From Escherichia coli (GTDB taxonomy: Bacteria; Pseudomonadota; Gammaproteobacteria; Enterobacterales; Enterobacteriaceae), in the NCBI RefSeq assembly GCF_013315695.1, contig NZ_CP054353.1: a stretch of 64,000 nt of DNA, one strand, 5' to 3'. The stretch's first letter is position 1. Each line of letters opens with the position of its first letter. Positions 1,951 through 47,025 of the stretch are shown here, one piece after another. The notes under the pieces are model-generated. The model did no database searches. It saw nothing but the letters and a program-made list of their open reading frames with translations, and was not told the DNA's origin. The translations under genes and the position numbers were made by a program.

Positions 1951-2334
1951 ATGTTCGTTGACAGACAGCGAATCGACCTGCTGAACCGGTTGATCGACGC
2001 ACGCGTTGACCTCGCCGCATACGTGCAACTGAGGAAGGCAAAAGGATACATGTCCGTCAGCGAAAGCAATCATCTACGAGATAACTTTTTTAAACTGAAT
2101 CGCGAACTGCACGATAAATCGCTGCGGTTGAATCTTCATCTGGATCAGGAAGAGTGGAGTGCTCTTCATCATGCTGAAGAAGCATTAGCGACAGCCGCAG
2201 TATGTTTGATGAGTGGGCACCATGATTGCCCGACTGTTATTACAGTCAACGCCGATAAGCTTGAAAATTGTCTGATGAGCTTAACGCTGAGTATCCAGAG
2301 CCTGCAGAAGCACGCCATGCTTGAGAAGGCCTGA
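1951..2334 (+). CDS. bssR: Biofilm regulator BssR
   Basis: 127-aa protein from internal ATG (MFVDRQRIDLLNRL...) inside the 138-aa ORF; matches recalled E. coli BssR (YliH) and its position next to rimO. Confidence 0.85.
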   Translation: MFVDRQRIDLLNRLIDARVDLAAYVQLRKAKGYMSVSESNHLRDNFFKLNRELHDKSLRLNLHLDQEEWSALHHAEEALATAAVCLMSGHHDCPTVITVNADKLENCLMSLTLSIQSLQKHAMLEKA

Positions 2335-2338
2335 AAAC

Positions 2339-2375
2339 TAAGGGGGAGAAAGCGTCTCCCCCTTCATGTTTAAGT
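2339..2375 (+). terminator. Candidate intrinsic terminator downstream of bssR
   Basis: GC hairpin aagggggaga-aagcg-tctccccctt followed by a T-rich stretch. Confidence 0.45.
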
Positions 2376-2444
2376 TTTTGTAAAAATGAATTTGTTATCT
2401 CCTCCACTGACTACGCTTTAAGCCAGAGTCAATCCGGAGGCGTT

Positions 2445-3560
2445 ATGCATCGACAATCCTTTTTCCTTGTGCCCCTTATTTGTCTTTCTTCCGCTCTCTG
2501 GGCGGCTCCTGCAACGGTAAATGTCGAAGTACTGCAAGACAAACTCGACCATCCCTGGGCGCTGGCCTTTTTACCCGACAATCACGGTATGTTAATCACT
2601 CTGCGCGGCGGCGAGTTGCGTCACTGGCAAGCAGGAAAAGGATTATCTGCGCCGCTTTCCGGAGTGCCGGAAGTTTGGGCGCACGGGCAGGGTGGCCTGC
2701 TGGATGTGGTTTTAGCGCCTGATTTTGCTCAGTCTCGCCGCATCTGGTTAAGTTATTCCGAAGTTGGCGATGATGGCAAAGCCGGAACTGCTGTGGGTTA
2801 TGGCCGCTTAAGTGATGATCTCTCAAAGGTGACCGACTTCCGCACCGTCTTTCGCCAGATGCCAAAACTGTCTACCGGCAACCATTTTGGCGGGCGGCTG
2901 GTATTCGACGGTAAAGGTTATCTTTTTATTGCTCTGGGCGAAAACAATCAGCGCCCGACGGCGCAGGATCTGGATAAATTACAGGGCAAACTGGTGCGTC
3001 TGACCGACCAGGGCGAAATCCCGGATGATAATCCTTTTATAAAGGAATCCGGTGCACGCGCCGAGATCTGGTCTTATGGCATTCGTAATCCGCAAGGAAT
3101 GGCGATGAATCCGTGGAGTAATGCACTATGGCTGAATGAACATGGCCCGCGCGGTGGCGATGAAATTAATATCCCGCAAAAAGGCAAAAACTACGGCTGG
3201 CCGCTGGCAACCTGGGGAATCAACTATTCGGGCTTTAAAATACCGGAAGCGAAAGGGGAGATCGTCGCCGGGACCGAGCAACCTGTTTTTTACTGGAAAG
3301 ATTCGCCCGCCGTGAGCGGCATGGCCTTCTATAACAGCGATAAATTCCCCCAGTGGCAGCAAAAATTATTTATTGGCGCGCTGAAAGATAAAGATGTCAT
3401 TGTGATGAGCGTCAACGGCGACAAAGTGACAGAAGATGGCCGTATTTTAACGGACAGAGGGCAGCGAATTCGTGATGTTCGCACTGGACCCGACGGTTAT
3501 TTATACGTTCTCACCGACGAGTCCAGTGGGGAATTACTTAAAGTTAGCCCACGCAATTAG
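2445..3560 (+). CDS. yliI: Soluble aldose sugar dehydrogenase (PQQ-dependent), YliI
   Basis: 371-aa ORF with signal peptide; length and synteny match E. coli YliI. Confidence 0.9.
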
Positions 3561-4183
3561 CTAACGGGAATCATCACCACTTTGCGCACTGCGGGGCGTT
3601 CAGTGAGTTGCTGATACCAGCGTTGCAGATTTGGACGCGGTGTCCAGGTCAGGCCAACGTTAAACAAATTGTAGATGAACGGTGCGATAGCGATATCGCC
3701 CACACCAAACTCGTCGCCGGAGAACCATTTTACTTTTGCCAGTTCCGCATCGAGCAGGGCAAACAGGGCGTCGCACTCTTTACAACTGGCATCAATGGCG
3801 GCCTGATCGCGCTCTTCCGGTGGTGTTCTGACTAATCCCATCAGGATCCCGCGATGGGCATTACTGAGCGTCTGGTTTGCCCAGTCCATCCATTTTTCTG
3901 CTTCCGCACGACGTGCCGGTGAGTCGATCCACAGGCGTTTTTGCCCGTACTGTGCCGCCAGATAGCGGACAATGGCGTTTGATTCCCAAAGAATGAGATC
4001 ACTTTCGTCGTCACGCAACAACGGCACCAGCCCGTTAGGGTTCATCGCCAGAAAATCAGCATCGTGATTTATCCCAAACTCACGGCCCGCGAGAATTTGC
4101 TCATAAGGTAGTTCCAGTTCTTCGAGCGTCAGCAATACTTTTTTTACGTTGGTTGAATTATTCCGACCCCACAGCGTAATCAT
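3557..4183 (-). CDS. gstB: Glutathione S-transferase GstB
   Basis: 208-aa product starting [16 protein letters not shown]; GST fold; synteny with yliI and dacC. Confidence 0.88.
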
Positions 4184-11662: not shown

Positions 11663-11681
11663 TAGATAAATTTTAGGCAAC

Positions 11682-11760
11682 AAAAAACCCACCAACCTTG
11701 AACCGAAATGGCGGGGTTGATGGGCTCCACAAAATGGGGACATCAAAGAAAAGCAGTGGC
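11682..11760 (-). ncRNA. rybB: Sigma-E-dependent small RNA RybB
   Basis: Reverse complement reads gccactgcttttctttgatgtccccattttgtggagcccatcaaccccgccatttcggttcaaggttggtgggtttttt, matching recalled RybB including the terminator hairpin and T6 tail; located between rcdA and ybjL as in K-12. Confidence 0.85.
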
Positions 11761-40973: not shown

Positions 40974-41312
40974 GAAAACCCAGTCCTTGCAAAGATGAAG
41001 TCGAAATGCGCGATGACACACTACTGAAAGCGGAAGGACGAGTAAAGTTGCAATTAAAAGGAAATGTTATGCAAAAGGAGCAGTAGAGTATTCGTTTTCA
41101 TTTAAAGATGTTCTTGCGCTTTAATTACAAACCGCACCGGTGTTGGTGGCGTCAAAATCGCTGAAGCGTTCCCCGAAGGCCGGGGCAGCCCACATGGATG
41201 TGGGCTGAGGGCGCGTCTTACAAGGATAATGAGATGGACGCTCCAGATTTTACGGTATCAAAGTACCAGACTGGATCGTTGCAATACGTCCTGAAAAATT
41301 AGGGGCGTCCAC

Positions 41313-42338
41313 ATGAAAGTATCAACTCTTGGTATCGACCTGGCAAAGAACGTTTTTCAGCTTCATGGTGTCGATCATGAAGGCCATACTATTTTGCGTA
41401 AAAAGCTCACCCGGGCTAAGTTTGTTCAGTTTGTGATTCAACTGGAACCTTGTCTGATTGGCATGGAAGCCTGCTCATCCAGTCATTATTTTGCGCGATT
41501 ATTCACCCGCTATGGTCATGAGGTAAAACTCATACCTCCGCAGTATGTGAAGCCTTATGTGAAAACGAACAAGACGGATGCAGCAGATGCTGAAGCAATC
41601 TGCGAAGCGGTAACCCGTCCGAATATGCGTTTTGTTCAGATAAAAACCGAAGAGCAGCAGGCCGTTTTAGCGTTACACACTGAACGGGGAATACTTATCC
41701 GTGAGCGGATTGCCTGTGCCAATAGTTTAAGAGCCACACTTGCTGAGTTTGGTATTACGATTGCGGCCGGACAAAGCCATTTAACACGTGAGCTGCCAGC
41801 CATTCTGGAGGATGGCGAAAATGGTTTATCTCCCTTTGTCAGAACCAGCATCTACAGACAGTCTAAACATATCCGGGAACTTGAAGAACAAGTTAAACAG
41901 GTAGAAGAAGCTCTGGCCTCCTGGTATAGAACGCAGGAAGCCTGCCAGAGAATGGCCAAGATCCCGGGGGTTGGCATGCTAACGGCCACTTATGTGGTAG
42001 CAGCAGTGGGTAATGCCCGACAATTCAGTACCGCAAAGCAGTTCGCTTCATGGCTGGGGCTGACACCAAAGGAACATTCCAGCGGCGGGAAACAGCAACT
42101 GGGAGGGATCAGCAAACGTGGAGATGGATATTTCCGATACCTGCTGGTTCACGGCGCACGCGCACTTACCGCCTGGGTCAACCGAAACGGCGCGGTTGAG
42201 GAGAATTCCTGGCTTCAGGGACTCCTTGAGCGGAAGCACTACAATGTAGCTGTTGTCGCCATGGCGGCAAAAACAGCGAGGATCATGTGGTCAATGTTGT
42301 CACACAATACTGAATATCAACCTCGGCAGCTCGCCTGA
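41313..42338 (+). CDS. IS110-family transposase/recombinase (RuvC-like DEDD N-domain plus C-terminal Tnp domain)
   Basis: 341-aa ORF starting MKVSTLGIDLAKNVFQLHGVD with conserved acidic residues (GIDLAKN, GMEACSS); typical IS110/IS1111 recombinase length and architecture; agggg SD upstream. Confidence 0.85.
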   Translation: MKVSTLGIDLAKNVFQLHGVDHEGHTILRKKLTRAKFVQFVIQLEPCLIGMEACSSSHYFARLFTRYGHEVKLIPPQYVKPYVKTNKTDAADAEAICEAVTRPNMRFVQIKTEEQQAVLALHTERGILIRERIACANSLRATLAEFGITIAAGQSHLTRELPAILEDGENGLSPFVRTSIYRQSKHIRELEEQVKQVEEALASWYRTQEACQRMAKIPGVGMLTATYVVAAVGNARQFSTAKQFASWLGLTPKEHSSGGKQQLGGISKRGDGYFRYLLVHGARALTAWVNRNGAVEENSWLQGLLERKHYNVAVVAMAAKTARIMWSMLSHNTEYQPRQLA

Positions 42339-42384
42339 CACAAGGTCAGTCAATCTGACGAGGTGCTGAAAAAAAGTTAACGTC

Positions 42385-42565
42385 CTGGTAGGTGCAGGTG
42401 ACTTCAGAAGATGGCAAAACAGGTAAGACCGCAGGCAGGATACACCGAGAGGTAACAAGGGCAAGTTAGCCCGTAGAGGATGATTGGTACCTGCCTGGCG
42501 GATTTCATCATGGTTCGGGATAAAAATCCCATCAGAAACCGGATATATGGCTGCACCTACCCGTT
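42385..42565 (+). ncRNA. Candidate structured RNA in IS110 right flank (possible bridge/guide RNA); strand and ends unverified
   Basis: Perfect 10-bp inverted repeat gtaggtgcag (42388-42397) / ctgcacctac (42551-42560) enclosing a nested ccgcaggcagg (42429-42439) / cctgcctggcgg (42490-42501) pair and a ggga-taaaaa-tccc hairpin; no convincing coding potential. Confidence 0.2.
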
Positions 42566-42839
42566 TTATTACATAACTGAAGAAAGCATTGCATTCCGGG
42601 AGCGTCCATATATGTTACCTCGCGCCCGACCCGGTAGCCGTAAGGGATAAGCCGAGGGCACCGCGCAGCGGCGATTTTGTTCGCCAGAGCCCGGGGGTGC
42701 AGGGGGCGGCGGCGATTGGCCGCCCCCTGCGCGCTCCTTGCGCCAGTGATTATATGAAGCAATGCACATGACAGGAGCGCAACAGGATGAGAGACTGAAC
42801 TATTCTCGTTATTTTCGGACCTGATGACATTAATTAATT

Positions 42840-42923
42840 TTAAAATATCATCTTAAATACGCCAGTCACCACCAGTAGCCCAATCAGGAAAATAATCAAT
42901 ACAGCCCAGAGTATAATTTTCAT
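42840..42923 (-). CDS. yohP: Small membrane protein YohP (27 aa)
   Basis: Manual translation MKIILWAVLIIFLIGLLVVTGVFKMIF; below the ORF-track length cutoff; adjacent to mdtQ as in K-12. Confidence 0.8.
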   Translation of the reverse strand: MKIILWAVLIIFLIGLLVVTGVFKMIF

Positions 42924-43146
42924 TGGCGTTCCTTTATTTGTGAGTGCTGAATAAGTATAGGAAAAAACGAAGCCCTTTGCCGCTATTCATAAACGATTAA
43001 GATAAATCGGAAGATATCATTCGCTTAGTGTATATTTTTCTGGATATGTCGTTTTATTGCCACTGATGTATTGCCACGCGAAACTAAAAAATATATCGCA
43101 ACACACGGTAATCTCCGCGCACCTTTTCTTACCTGATTATTCCCCC

Positions 43147-44583
43147 ATGAATCGTGATTCTTTTTATCCAGCCATCGCCTGTTTTCCGCTGTTACTGATG
43201 CTAGCCGGGTGTGCGCCTATGCATGAAACCCGCCAGGCGTTAAGCCAGCAAACACCCGCGGCACAAGTTGACACCGCATTACCCACGGCGCTGAAAAATG
43301 GTTGGCCAGACAGCCAATGGTGGCTGGAGTATCACGATAATCAACTCACCTCATTAATTAATAACGCACTACAGAACGCACCGGATATGCAGGTGGCTGA
43401 ACAGCGCATTCAGCTGGCTGAAGCCCAGGCGAAGGCAGTTGCCACTCAGGATGGTCCACAGCTCGACTTTTCTGCGGATATGGAGCGGCAAAAAATGTCG
43501 GCAGAAGGGTTAATGGGGCCGTTTGCTTTGAACGATCCTGCCGCAGGTACGACCGGTCCGTGGTACACCAACGATACTTTTGGCTTAACGGCGGGCTGGC
43601 ATCTCGATATCTGGGGAAAGACTCGGGCGGAGGTTACTGCTCGCCTCGGTACGGTTAAAGCACGGGCGGCGGAACGCGAGCAAACCCGCCAATTGCTGGC
43701 TGGCAGCGTAGCCCGCCTGTACTGGGAGTGGCAAACCCAGGCGGCGTTAAACACGGTCTTACAGCAAATCGAAAAAGAGCAGAACACCATTATCGCCACC
43801 GATCGCCAGCTATATCAGAACGGGATTACTTCTGCAGTTGAAGGTGTGGAAACCGATATTAATGCCAGCAAAACCCGGCAGCAGCTCAACGATGTCGCGG
43901 GGAAAATGAAAATTATTGAGGCACGGTTAAGTGCGCTCACCAACCACCAGACAAAGTCATTGAAGCTTAAACCGGTCGCGTTGCCGAAAGTGGCAAGTCA
44001 GCTTCCTGATGAACTCGGGTACTCCTTACTGGCCCGGCGGGCAGATTTGCAGGCGGCGCACTGGTACGTTGAGTCATCGTTAAGCACTATTGATGCGGCA
44101 AAAGCGGCATTTTATCCTGACATCAACCTGATGGCCTTTCTGCAACAGGATGCGTTGCACTTAAGCGATCTGTTCCGTCATTCCGCGCAGCAAATGGGCG
44201 TTACGGCAGGCCTGACGCTACCCATTTTCGATAGTGGTCGTCTTAACGCCAATCTCGATATCGCAAAAGCCGAAAGCAACTTGTCTATCGCCAGCTACAA
44301 CAAAGCGGTGGTTGAAGCGGTAAATGACGTGGCGCGGGCGGCCAGCCAGGTTCAGACACTGGCGGAGAAAAACCAGCATCAGGCGCAAATTGAGCACGAT
44401 GCCTTGCGTGTGGTAGGTCTTGCGCAGGCGCGCTTTAACGCGGGCATCATTGCTGGTTCCCGCGTCAGCGAAGCCAGAATCCCCGCGCTGCGTGAGCGGG
44501 CCAATGGCCTGTTATTGCAAGGGCAGTGGCTGGATGCCTCCATTCAACTCACCGGTGCGCTGGGCGGGGGTTACAAACGCTGA
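43147..44583 (+). CDS. mdtQ: Outer-membrane efflux lipoprotein (NodT/OMF family) MdtQ (YohG), apparently intact
   Basis: 478-aa product from internal ATG (MNRDSFYPAIACFPLLLMLAGCAP..., lipobox LAGC); uninterrupted reading frame, unlike the K-12 pseudogene. Confidence 0.85.
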   Translation: MNRDSFYPAIACFPLLLMLAGCAPMHETRQALSQQTPAAQVDTALPTALKNGWPDSQWWLEYHDNQLTSLINNALQNAPDMQVAEQRIQLAEAQAKAVATQDGPQLDFSADMERQKMSAEGLMGPFALNDPAAGTTGPWYTNDTFGLTAGWHLDIWGKTRAEVTARLGTVKARAAEREQTRQLLAGSVARLYWEWQTQAALNTVLQQIEKEQNTIIATDRQLYQNGITSAVEGVETDINASKTRQQLNDVAGKMKIIEARLSALTNHQTKSLKLKPVALPKVASQLPDELGYSLLARRADLQAAHWYVESSLSTIDAAKAAFYPDINLMAFLQQDALHLSDLFRHSAQQMGVTAGLTLPIFDSGRLNANLDIAKAESNLSIASYNKAVVEAVNDVARAASQVQTLAEKNQHQAQIEHDALRVVGLAQARFNAGIIAGSRVSEARIPALRERANGLLLQGQWLDASIQLTGALGGGYKR

Positions 44584-44635: not shown

Positions 44636-45397
44636 ATGGCACAGGTCGCGATAATTACCGCCTCCGATTCGGGGATCGGCAAAGAGTGCGCGTTATTACT
44701 GGCGCAGCAGGGGTTTGATATTGGCATTACCTGGCACTCAGATGAAGAAGGGGCAAAAGATACCGCGCGTGAGGTAGTTAGCCACGGCGTACGTGCGGAG
44801 ATCGTGCAACTGGATCTCGGCAATCTACCAGAAGGGGCACTGGCGCTGGAGAAACTTATTCATCGGCTGGGGCGTATTGATGTGCTGGTGAATAATGCGG
44901 GCGCAATGACCAAAGCGCCGTTTCTTGATATGGCTTTCGATGAGTGGCGCAAGATTTTTACCGTTGATGTCGATGGTGCATTTTTATGCTCGCAAATTGC
45001 TGCCCGCCAGATGGTGAAGCAAGGGCAGGGCGGTCGCATCATCAACATTACATCGGTACATGAACATACGCCGCTGCCGGATGCCAGCGCCTACACAGCC
45101 GCTAAACATGCGCTCGGCGGGTTAACCAAAGCAATGGCGTTGGAGTTGGTCAGGCATAAAATTTTGGTGAACGCAGTCGCACCTGGGGCGATCGCCACGC
45201 CAATGAACGGCATGGATGACGGCGATGTGAAGCCCGACGCGGAGCCTTCGATTCCCTTGCGACGTTTTGGCACAACGCATGAGATTGCCAGTCTGGTGGT
45301 ATGGCTTTGTTCGGAGGGCGCAAATTACACCACCGGGCGGTCGTTGATAGTGGATGGCGGCTTTATGTTGGCGAATCCGCAGTTCAACCCAGAATAG
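44636..45397 (+). CDS. yohF: Short-chain dehydrogenase/reductase YohF
   Basis: 253-aa product from internal ATG (MAQVAIITASDSGIGKECA...); SDR fold with TGxxxGIG and YxxxK. Confidence 0.9.
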   Translation: MAQVAIITASDSGIGKECALLLAQQGFDIGITWHSDEEGAKDTAREVVSHGVRAEIVQLDLGNLPEGALALEKLIHRLGRIDVLVNNAGAMTKAPFLDMAFDEWRKIFTVDVDGAFLCSQIAARQMVKQGQGGRIINITSVHEHTPLPDASAYTAAKHALGGLTKAMALELVRHKILVNAVAPGAIATPMNGMDDGDVKPDAEPSIPLRRFGTTHEIASLVVWLCSEGANYTTGRSLIVDGGFMLANPQFNPE

Positions 45398-46852: not shown

Positions 46853-47025
46853 AAAGTTCTTTTGCGCTGCATTGCTGGCGTAAATGTCAGCAATGCAGCA
46901 TTTCCTCACGATTCTTCTTTGACGATCGCACTTTTTGCTCGTTATGATGGCGTCGCTAGCCTCAGTAAATCCTTACTCCGGCGGTGCGCAACCCGTGCGC
47001 GTGAACCACTATCTGAATGCTCATC

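What the first reader, a model, noticed from the sequence alone, without database searches (positions are those of the whole stretch)
43147..44583. mdtQ (yohG) reads as an intact outer-membrane efflux lipoprotein gene
Seen: a continuous 478-codon frame with lipobox and NodT-family features. Established (recalled): in K-12 this gene is an interrupted pseudogene. Inference: this strain may retain a functional OMF partner for an efflux system.
Basis: partly seen in the sequence, partly recalled or inferred. Interest (0 to 1): 0.3.

Follow-up and report, generated by a model that had tools for sequence, protein, structure and literature searches.

The report
Intact mdtQ outer-membrane channel gene
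This is the normal full-length mdtQ gene for a TolC-like outer-membrane efflux channel; nearly all E. coli have it intact, and only the K-12 laboratory lineage carries a one-base deletion, so the finding is correct but ordinary.

Summary
Window 43147-44583 (+) is an uninterrupted 478-codon gene. It has a lipobox (L19-A20-G21-C22), two OEP repeats, and an end-to-end match to the NCBIfam MdtQ equivalog (1016 bits, cutoff 650).

The K-12 lesion is a single-base deletion in an A5 run (window 43294-43298, codons 50-51). Among 5,426 complete E. coli genomes, the K-12 A4 form occurs in 355, and every carrier I looked at is a K-12 laboratory strain. The intact A5 form is an exact match in 4,586 genomes. 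Nine of nine sampled non-K-12 genomes have the full 478-codon frame, with dN/dS of 0.05-0.10.

Full-length orthologs lie at the same position in Salmonella and Citrobacter. A 2025 review already states that mdtQ is conserved in the E. coli core genome despite the K-12 pseudogene label. So this is not a special retention by this strain.

The function and pump partner remain unknown. No adaptor or pump gene is adjacent. The nearest relatives sit in FUSC-type and MFS-type pump operons.

Three side observations:
- This allele carries a rare G143D substitution, found in 5 of 5,426 genomes.
- A conserved block resembling a marbox lies upstream of the gene.
- The gene sits next to one junction of a published ~1.5-Mb inversion, and both junctions carry an IS110-family element.

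The parts
43147..44583 (+). mdtQ (yohG) coding sequence, 478 codons plus TGA; outer-membrane-factor (NodT/OMF) lipoprotein
   Evidence: ORF and translation. NF008524 at 1016.5 bits, full length. Pfam OEP in two stretches. RefSeq annotation of identical DNA. AF2 model with pLDDT 84.9 matches VceC, CusC, OprN, OprM and TolC.
43147..43212 (+). Lipoprotein signal peptide, codons 1-22. The lipobox L19-A20-G21-C22 is at 43201-43212. The +2 residue is Ala, so there is no inner-membrane retention signal.
   Evidence: Read from the sequence; regex [LVI][ASTVI][GAS]C hit at residues 19-22; Cys22 invariant in 72 homologs. Sorting to the outer membrane follows from the established +2 rule and is an inference.
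43294..43298 (+). A5 run (K50 and the first two bases of N51). This is the site of the K-12 lesion, where K-12 has A4.
   Evidence: Global alignment to NC_000913 b2139 shows one gap column here plus 42 substitutions. The exact A4 62-mer is in 355 genomes and the exact A5 63-mer in 4,586. All 60 listed A4 carriers are K-12 laboratory strains.
43573..43575 (+). Codon 143, GAT (Asp), where other E. coli have GGT or GGA (Gly). A rare clone-specific missense, G143D.
   Evidence: The exact 61-mer is in only 5 of 5,426 genomes. The single difference is G to A at 43574. Gly is present in all orthologs and close homologs compared except one, and in 29 of 72 sequences in the wider family. The residue lies in predicted strand 139-153.
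43065..43091 (+). Conserved upstream block GATGTATTGCCACGCGAAACTAAAAAA. Its core, TGCCAC-N6-CTAAA (43072-43088), resembles a marbox and reads towards mdtQ.
   Evidence: Invariant across E. coli, Salmonella and Citrobacter in an otherwise diverged intergenic region. The pattern occurs once in the window against 0.02 expected. It is present upstream of every mdtQ ortholog fetched, including a 59%-identical homolog with a different spacer, and in the K-12 marC-marR intergenic region.
43109..43114 (+). Possible -10 hexamer TAATCT (TACTCT in Salmonella), 20 nt downstream of the marbox-like core
   Evidence: Conserved columns in alignment A1. Not reported by the consensus promoter scan. Inference only.
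42840..42923 (-). yohP, a small membrane protein gene divergent from mdtQ
   Evidence: RefSeq annotation of AF3 mapped onto the window. K-12 has the same arrangement.
44636..45397 (+). yohF, an SDR oxidoreductase gene 52 nt downstream of mdtQ; possibly co-transcribed
   Evidence: Annotation. No terminator-like site between the two genes. yohF is absent from this position in Citrobacter, so the link is not obligatory.
41228..42611 (+). IS110-family element of about 1.38 kb (transposase CDS 41313-42338), inserted in the TRIP1 repeat about 230 bp beyond yohP
   Evidence: ORF. RefSeq product 'IS110 family RNA-guided transposase'. Boundaries from BLAST against K-12.
41132..41227 (.). Left flank of the IS: TRIP1a-type repeat, from the lysO side
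   Evidence: 96% identical to the K-12 lysO-aqpZ intergenic region and 90.7% to the K-12 yohP-dusC intergenic region.
42612..42790 (.). Right flank of the IS: TRIP1c-type repeat, from the yohP side
   Evidence: 99.2% identical to the K-12 yohP-dusC region and 93.3% to the K-12 lysO-aqpZ region.

Best explanation
This is the ordinary wild-type mdtQ (yohG) gene. It encodes an outer-membrane-factor lipoprotein of the NodT/TolC superfamily.

Shown here:
- The frame is whole.
- The K-12 pseudogene differs by one deleted A in an A5 run, and that lesion is confined to the K-12 laboratory lineage.
- Intact mdtQ is the norm in E. coli and is under purifying selection.
- The gene is conserved at the same chromosomal position in Salmonella and Citrobacter.

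Inferred from family knowledge:
- The precursor is exported, lipidated at Cys22 and cleaved by signal peptidase II.
- Because residue +2 is Ala, the Lol pathway sends it to the outer membrane.
- Three protomers form a 12-stranded beta-barrel plus a long alpha-helical periplasmic tunnel.
- That tunnel docks onto the periplasmic adaptor of an inner-membrane pump and serves as its exit duct.

Like tolC, the gene stands alone, so its partner or partners are encoded elsewhere. Its nearest non-orthologous relatives sit in operons with FUSC-type pumps or MFS pumps plus AaeA/EmrA-type adaptors, and its closest solved structure is VceC. The most likely partners are therefore pumps of those types rather than RND pumps. 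That step is inference only.
For: Identity:
- NF008524 MdtQ equivalog at 1016.5 bits over 1-478/478; TIGR01845 NodT above its cutoff.
- Pfam OEP in two stretches.
- Sequence matches to VceC (6.8e-38), OprM, SilC, CmeC and CusC.
- AF2 model with pLDDT 84.9 and pTM 0.80. Its four strands and long helices match VceC (TM 0.87), CusC, OprN, OprM and TolC.

K-12 lesion:
- One gap column at the A5 run.
- The A4 form is an exact match in 355 of 5,403 genomes. All 60 listed carriers are K-12 derivatives, as are the other carriers sampled.
- The A5 form is an exact match in 4,586 genomes.

Intactness and selection:
- 9 of 9 sampled non-K-12 genomes have 478 codons.
- dN/dS of the window allele against the others is 0.05-0.10.

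Not a sequencing artefact:
- Identical mdtQ DNA is in AF3 and MSB1_4I, and three more genomes are 99.9% identical.

Depth of conservation:
- Orthologs of 478-479 aa at 80-82% identity in Salmonella and Citrobacter, and 94% in E. albertii.
- Same synteny, dusC-(yohP)-mdtQ-(yohF)-yohD-yohC-pbpG-dld-bglX.

Literature:
[quoted passage not shown] It is encoded alone and its function is not elucidated (PMC11762307).

Partner type:
- A 42%-identical homolog sits in a Ytca-adaptor-FUSC-OMF operon.
- A 41%-identical homolog follows a FUSC gene.
- A 39%-identical homolog lies between an MFS gene and an EmrA-like adaptor gene.
Against: Nothing argues against the identity of the gene. Several points weigh against assuming it is functional in this strain:
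- This allele carries G143D, found in 5 of 5,426 genomes, at a Gly that is invariant in MdtQ orthologs. It lies in a predicted barrel strand, in the register of hydrophobic residues (W139, T141, F145, L147, A149, W151, L153), which is probably the lipid-facing side.
- There is no Shine-Dalgarno-like sequence before the ATG (ATTATTCCCCCATG), and the consensus scan reported no sigma-70 promoter in the 223-bp upstream region.
- No adaptor or pump is adjacent in any genus examined, so the partner is unproven.
- Occasional natural losses occur. One example is an IS1-associated N-terminal deletion in STEC379. In addition, 28 genomes have matches covering less than 80% of the query. The gene is therefore dispensable at least sometimes.
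Confidence: 0.93

Rival explanations
1. The gene is intact as a frame but impaired or silent in this clone. G143D would damage barrel insertion or stability, or the gene would be cryptic with negligible expression. The strain would then gain no working channel despite the open frame.
For: G143D is restricted to 5 of 5,426 genomes and changes a Gly that is invariant in orthologs. The residue lies in predicted strand 139-153, in the hydrophobic register. There is no Shine-Dalgarno-like sequence and no scan-level promoter. The review states that the mdtQ promoter is not experimentally confirmed and the function is unknown.
Against: In the wider family, position 143 tolerates S, T, N, A and Y; Gly is present in only 29 of 72 sequences. 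The five carriers are clinical isolates and their mdtQ shows no further lesion. Species-wide dN/dS of 0.05-0.10 shows that the protein is used. Salmonella yohG transcripts are detected and induced: log2 fold change 1.6 in hypochlorite (PMC9065344) and 5.28 in a ciprofloxacin-selected mutant (PMC5381912).
Confidence: 0.12
2. The open frame is an assembly or sequencing artefact: a homopolymer miscall at the A run restores the frame.
For: The K-12 lesion lies in a homopolymer, a typical site of long-read indel errors.
Against: A5 is an exact match in 4,586 genomes. Identical mdtQ DNA is in two independent assemblies, and three more are 99.9% identical. Every non-K-12 genome sampled has A5.
Confidence: 0.01
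3. Intact mdtQ is an unusual retention specific to this strain or phylogroup, and most E. coli share the K-12 lesion.
For: None beyond the K-12 reference annotation.
Against: Only 355 of 5,403 genomes have the A4 form, and the carriers seen are K-12 laboratory strains. Nine of nine sampled non-K-12 genomes from diverse hosts are intact. Orthologs are intact in three other species or genera. The literature says the same.
Confidence: 0.01

Closest known systems
MdtQ/YohG of non-K-12 E. coli (NCBIfam NF008524; for example O157:H7 UniProt Q8X659, cited in PMC11762307)
   Same: Same gene. It is 478 aa, 97-100% identical in DNA across 5,390 or more genomes, has the same neighbours (yohP upstream, yohF downstream), and matches the family model end to end.
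   Different: The window allele carries D143, T159 and H417. H417 is the ancestral residue, shared with E. albertii, Salmonella and Citrobacter. T159 is at a variable position. D143 is rare, in 5 of 5,426 genomes. Upstream of yohP, the locus is joined to lysO rather than dusC because of a lineage-specific inversion.
K-12 mdtQ pseudogene (b2139; formerly split as yohG and yohH)
   Same: Orthologous locus. After the missing A is restored, it differs from the window allele at 36 synonymous and 6 non-synonymous codons. The upstream region is the same.
   Different: K-12 has A4 instead of A5 at codons 50-51, which gives a stop at codon 70. The window does not have this lesion.
MdtP (mdtNOP operon), the other NodT-family paralog in E. 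coli
   Same: Same family and architecture. The window protein scores 353 bits on the MdtP model.
   Different: That score is below the MdtP cutoff of 597, so this is not an MdtP. mdtP is encoded together with its adaptor MdtN and pump MdtO, whereas mdtQ stands alone.
VceC of Vibrio cholerae (PDB 1yc9), outer-membrane factor of the VceAB MFS-type pump
   Same: It is the best solved-structure match both by sequence (6.8e-38) and by fold (TM 0.87).
   Different: Identity is only about 25%. vceC is encoded with its pump, whereas mdtQ is an orphan.
TolC, the general E. coli exit duct
   Same: Same fold class (TM about 0.76). Like mdtQ, it is a stand-alone OMF gene that would have to serve pumps encoded elsewhere.
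   Different: Identity is about 13%. TolC is not a lipoprotein, whereas MdtQ has a lipobox. TolC function is well established and MdtQ function is not.

Membership tests
MdtQ (NCBIfam NF008524 equivalog) | Full-length match above the curated cutoff (650 bits) | tested here: met
   1016.5 bits over 1-478 of 478.
MdtQ (NCBIfam NF008524 equivalog) | Orthologous chromosomal position (yohP/dusC side upstream; yohF-yohD-yohC-pbpG downstream) | tested here: met
   Same neighbours as in K-12, other E. coli, Salmonella and Citrobacter. Only the region beyond yohP is rearranged.
Outer membrane factor, NodT subfamily (TIGR01845; Pfam OEP PF02321) | Two tandem OEP repeats | tested here: met
   PF02321 at 9.3e-29 in 2 stretches. 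TIGR01845 at 272.7 bits against a cutoff of 210.
Outer membrane factor, NodT subfamily (TIGR01845; Pfam OEP PF02321) | N-terminal lipoprotein signal with a lipobox cysteine | tested here: met
   LAGC at residues 19-22. The Cys is invariant in 72 homologs. Actual acylation is not testable with these tools.
Outer membrane factor, NodT subfamily (TIGR01845; Pfam OEP PF02321) | TolC-like protomer fold: 4 beta strands plus long coiled helices | tested here: met
   AF2 model with pLDDT 84.9 has strands 105-116, 139-153, 325-336 and 348-357, and helices of up to 73 residues. Foldseek against VceC, CusC, OprN, OprM and TolC gives probability 1.00 and TM 0.75-0.89.
Outer membrane factor, NodT subfamily (TIGR01845; Pfam OEP PF02321) | Trimer that docks with a periplasmic adaptor and an inner-membrane pump | not testable with these tools
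   No adaptor or pump gene is adjacent. Relatives at 39-42% identity sit in FUSC or MFS pump operons.
K-12-type mdtQ pseudogene | A4 frameshift at codons 50-51 | tested here: not met
   The window has A5 at 43294-43298.
MarA/SoxS/Rob(/RamA) regulon promoter (marbox, class II) | Match to the published consensus gcannwwntgnnaaa with at most 2 mismatches (criterion of PMC12052159) | tested here: not met
   By hand count, the conserved block CCACGCGAAACTAAA has 5 of 10 specified positions mismatched in that register. The best site anywhere in the upstream region has 3 mismatches (consensus).
MarA/SoxS/Rob(/RamA) regulon promoter (marbox, class II) | Two recognition elements, CAC(G/T) and AAA, 7 bp apart (PMC8811837), in forward orientation overlapping the -35 position | tested here: met
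   CACG-CGAAACT-AAA at 43075-43088 reads towards mdtQ. It is 20 nt upstream of the conserved TAATCT. The elements are kept and the spacer varies in a 59%-identical homolog. The same TGCCAC-N6-CTAAA pattern is in the K-12 marRAB control region.
MarA/SoxS/Rob(/RamA) regulon promoter (marbox, class II) | Binding or activation by the regulator | tested here: inconclusive
   mdtQ/yohG is absent from MarA ChIP-seq in ETEC (PMC5684230), from the Salmonella MarA/SoxS/Rob/RamA mapping, and from the 2025 marbox screen. The authors of PMC5684230 note that sites preferring SoxS or Rob are missed. Salmonella yohG is induced by hypochlorite and in a ciprofloxacin-selected mutant.

The most novel reading that the evidence does not exclude
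mdtQ would be a stress-inducible orphan exit duct. It would be driven by a conserved class II promoter of the MarA/SoxS/Rob type (TGCCAC-N6-CTAAA, window 43072-43088). It would serve non-RND pumps that have no cognate outer-membrane factor, namely FUSC-type or MFS-type pumps with AaeA/EmrA-like adaptors. This role would have stayed hidden because nearly all efflux genetics has been done in K-12, where the gene is frameshifted.
Probability: 0.15. Interest if true: 0.45.

Novelty: already known. Interest (0 to 1): 0.1.

Why it matters
As stated, the finding matters little. An intact mdtQ is what almost every E. coli has, and the literature already says so. The practical lesson is a caution about reference bias: K-12 is the outlier, so K-12-based efflux genetics cannot report on MdtQ. 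What remains open is the biology of MdtQ: its partner pump, its substrates and its regulation. The conserved marbox-like element and the FUSC/MFS affiliation of its relatives give concrete hypotheses that can be tested cheaply in any non-K-12 strain.

Tried and rejected
- Sequencing artefact. Rejected.
- Strain-specific retention. Rejected.
- Partner pump from gene neighbourhood. No adaptor or pump is next to mdtQ in E. coli, Salmonella or Citrobacter. Only relatives at 39-42% identity sit in pump operons, so this gives a pump type, not a specific partner.
- Consensus promoter and terminator scan. It found no sigma-70 site in the mdtQ upstream region, and the terminator-like hits do not exceed shuffles.
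- The conserved upstream block was compared by eye, from recalled consensus sequences and without a tool test, with sites for sigma-E, sigma-28, sigma-54, CRP, FNR, OmpR, CpxR, PhoP, EvgA and BaeR. None was convincing.
- Strict marbox consensus. Not met.
- Published MarA/SoxS/Rob/RamA binding maps. None mentions mdtQ or yohG.
- The older regulon papers (Barbosa & Levy 2000; Pomposiello 2001) are not held in the library.
- Rfam scan of the whole window. It found only RybB and the Peptidase-S11 motif, and nothing at mdtQ.
- The longer TTG-started ORF at 43057. Rejected as the start because the family model and cross-genus conservation begin at the ATG at 43147.
Full report
**Observation**

Window 43147-44583 (+) is a continuous reading frame of 478 codons ending in TGA. 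The N-terminus, MNRDSFYPAIACFPLLLMLAGC|AP, has a hydrophobic core and a lipobox, L19-A20-G21-C22. Cys22 is invariant in an alignment of 72 homologs.

Pfam finds two OEP repeats. NCBIfam places the protein end to end on the MdtQ equivalog model (1016.5 bits, cutoff 650) and above the cutoff of the NodT subfamily model. The MdtP, CusC-type and TolC-type models score below their cutoffs.

An AlphaFold2 model built on those 72 sequences has pLDDT 84.9 and pTM 0.80. It shows four beta strands and very long helices. It superposes on VceC, CusC, OprN, SilC, OprM and TolC with probability 1.00. VceC is also the best sequence match among solved structures.

**The K-12 lesion**

NC_000913 annotates b2139 as a pseudogene. 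A global alignment of the two genes shows 42 substitutions and exactly one gap: K-12 lacks one A of the run at window 43294-43298 (CTG AAA AAT GGT becomes CTG AAA ATG GTT). This shifts the frame after Lys50 and gives a stop at codon 70. After restoring that base, K-12 differs from the window at 36 synonymous and 6 non-synonymous codons. The frameshift is therefore the only disabling change, and it is recent.

**How common each state is**

Short queries centred on the run separate the two states among 5,426 complete E. coli genomes.
- The exact K-12 A4 62-mer is in 355 genomes.
- The exact A5 63-mer is in 4,586 genomes.
- Almost all the rest differ only by flanking SNPs. In every such row shown, the aligned length is that of the A5 state.
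- All 60 A4 carriers listed are K-12 derivatives: MG1655, C600, J53, DH5alpha, DH1, RR1, NCM3722, AG100 and others. So are the other A4 carriers seen.

I also fetched ten genomes taken at even steps down the similarity ranking. Nine have an intact 478-codon mdtQ. The tenth, strain 11202, is flagged 'frameshifted' and is base-for-base identical to K-12.

One further genome, STEC379, has lost the 5' part of the gene next to an IS1. Only 28 genomes that match have less than 80% coverage. Sporadic independent losses therefore exist but are rare.

Pairwise dN/dS between the window allele and the others is 0.05-0.10, with a mean over all pairs of 0.085. This indicates purifying selection.

**Not an artefact**

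The window's mdtQ is 100% identical to that of two independent assemblies, AF3 (NZ_OZ547117.1) and MSB1_4I (LR898874.1). Three others are 99.9% identical.

**Evolutionary depth**

Full-length orthologs of 478-479 aa occur in E. albertii (94%), Salmonella enterica (81-82%) and Citrobacter (80-81%). The synteny is the same: dusC-(yohP)-mdtQ-(yohF)-yohD-yohC-pbpG-dld-bglX. Intact mdtQ is thus ancestral.

**What is already known**

A 2025 review of TolC states the following (PMC11762307):
- E. coli has four outer-membrane factors: TolC, CusC, MdtP and MdtQ.
- mdtQ is encoded independently of any pump.
- Its function and promoter are not established.

The finding is therefore correct but already known, and the contrast with K-12 says something about K-12, not about this strain.

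**Mechanism**

From family knowledge, the precursor is lipidated at Cys22 and cleaved. Because the +2 residue is Ala, it is sent to the outer membrane. It trimerises into a beta-barrel plus an alpha-helical tunnel that docks onto a periplasmic adaptor.

The partner cannot be read from the locus. No adaptor or pump gene is adjacent in E. coli, Salmonella or Citrobacter. yohF lies 52 nt downstream with no terminator-like site between the genes, but it is absent from that position in Citrobacter.

I searched 1.84 billion cluster representatives and then looked up the genomic context of the nearest non-orthologous relatives.
- A 42%-identical homolog is the last gene of a Ytca-adaptor-FUSC-OMF operon.
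- A 41%-identical homolog follows a FUSC gene.
- A 39%-identical homolog lies between an MFS gene and an EmrA-like adaptor gene.

Together with VceC as the closest structure, this suggests that MdtQ works with FUSC-type or MFS-type tripartite pumps rather than RND pumps. This is inference. Candidate E. coli pumps without a cognate OMF gene, such as AaeAB and YdhJK, are named from my own knowledge and were not tested.

**Caveat specific to this allele**

Compared with ten other E. coli alleles, the window protein has three private residues.
- H417 is the ancestral residue, shared with E. albertii, Salmonella and Citrobacter.
- T159 is at a variable position.
- D143 (GGT to GAT at 43574) replaces a Gly that is invariant in all MdtQ orthologs and present in all but one of the close homologs compared.

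The 61-mer carrying D143 is in only 5 of 5,426 genomes, all from human sources and closely related. Residue 143 lies in predicted strand 139-153. It shares a register with W139, T141, F145, L147, A149, W151 and L153, which is probably the lipid-facing side. In the wider family, however, the position is Gly in only 29 of 72 sequences and tolerates S, T, N, A and Y. The effect is therefore uncertain. 'Intact' should not be read as 'proven functional' for this clone.

**Upstream region**

The 223-bp yohP-mdtQ spacer is essentially identical to that of K-12. Across genera it is diverged except for one block, window 43065-43091 (GATGTATTGCCACGCGAAACTAAAAAA), and a TAATCT/TACTCT motif at 43109-43114.

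The core pattern, TGCCAC-N6-CTAAA, has these properties:
- It occurs once in the 64-kb window, against 0.02 expected by chance.
- It is found upstream of every mdtQ ortholog fetched.
- In a 59%-identical homolog the six spacer bases differ but both flanking elements, and the distance to the ATG, are kept.
- The same pattern is in the K-12 marC-marR control region, at the place where I recall the marRAB marbox to be.
- It fits the CAC(G/T)-7X-AAA core described for MarA and RamA sites, in the forward orientation used at class II promoters such as micF (PMC8811837).

Several points weigh against a marbox:
- The block has 5 mismatches to the 15-nt consensus used in a 2025 screen, which allowed 2 (hand count).
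- mdtQ is absent from MarA ChIP-seq in ETEC, from the Salmonella MarA/SoxS/Rob/RamA maps, and from the supplements of that screen.

Weak support comes from Salmonella. There, yohG is induced by hypochlorite and in a ciprofloxacin-selected mutant.

I regard the block as a real cis-element of unknown regulator. A MarA/SoxS/Rob-type site is the leading hypothesis but is unproven.

**Surroundings beyond yohP**

In the window, lysO follows yohP instead of dusC, and an IS110-family element (41228-42611) lies between them. This is one junction of a large inversion. It is shared by 97 complete genomes, including IAI39 and SMS-3-5. It has been published as a TRIP1a/TRIP1c repeat-mediated inversion of about 1.3 Mb (PMC10888264).

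Three results bear on its origin:
- The IS sits exactly where the flanking repeat switches from TRIP1a-type to TRIP1c-type.
- The reciprocal junction, dusC-IS-aqpZ, exists in 85 genomes and also carries a roughly 1.38-kb IS110-family copy at the same point.
- The two junction segments are 98.6% identical over 1,660 bp.

Recombination between the two inverted IS copies is therefore at least as good an explanation as recombination between the 272-bp, 94%-identical repeats. The mdtQ promoter region itself is not touched by the rearrangement.

**Verdict**

The finding is already known and of low interest. The leads with some potential are the marbox-like element, the FUSC/MFS affiliation and the G143D allele.

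Noticed in passing
window 43573-43575 (codon 143 of mdtQ): Rare missense G143D (GGT to GAT). The exact 61-mer is in only 5 of 5,426 complete E. coli genomes. Gly is invariant in MdtQ orthologs. The residue lies in a predicted barrel strand, in the hydrophobic (probably lipid-facing) register.
   Followed up: partly
window 43065-43091 and 43109-43114: A block upstream of mdtQ is conserved across genera. Its core, TGCCAC-N6-CTAAA, occurs once in the window (0.02 expected), is shared with the K-12 marRAB control region, and is kept with a different spacer in a 59%-identical homolog. It may be a class II marbox with TAATCT as the -10 hexamer. It fails the strict published consensus, and mdtQ is absent from the published binding maps.
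   Followed up: partly
window 41132-42790; reciprocal junction in L024 (NZ_OZ547117.1 1689020-1693004): The published TRIP1a/1c inversion (about 1.5 Mb in AF3) has an IS110-family element at both junctions: lysO-IS-yohP in 97 genomes and dusC-IS-aqpZ in 85. The IS sits exactly at the point where the flanks switch from TRIP1a-type to TRIP1c-type. IS-IS recombination may be the real cause. The TRIP1 paper does not discuss the IS.
   Followed up: partly
window 41648-42260: The window differs from isolate AF3 at six positions, all inside the IS110-family element, while mdtQ itself is 100% identical. The window therefore comes from a very close relative, or the two IS copies have exchanged sequence.
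   Followed up: no
window 43135-43149: There is no Shine-Dalgarno-like sequence before the mdtQ ATG (ATTATTCCCCCATG; CCTCCATG and TCTCCATG in Salmonella and Citrobacter). This suggests weak or unusual translation initiation.
   Followed up: no
L013 (NZ_CP091024.1, STEC379) 2248-3573: An independent natural loss of mdtQ. An IS1A copy abuts a 5'-truncated mdtQ, annotated as 'TolC family protein, missing N-terminus'.
   Followed up: no
window 46941-47021 (+): Rfam Peptidase-S11 RNA motif (72.8 bits) upstream of pbpG. [quoted passage not shown] A confirmed mar-regulon target therefore lies four genes downstream of mdtQ.
   Followed up: no
window 11679-11757 (-): RybB sRNA (Rfam RF00110, 104 bits), as expected for this chromosomal region.
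   Followed up: no
literature (PMC11762307, its ref. 48): The review cites drug-susceptibility phenotypes for mdtQ null mutants. From memory, that study used a K-12 strain, in which mdtQ is already frameshifted at codon 51. If so, the phenotype needs another explanation, such as polarity on yohF, or noise.
   Followed up: no
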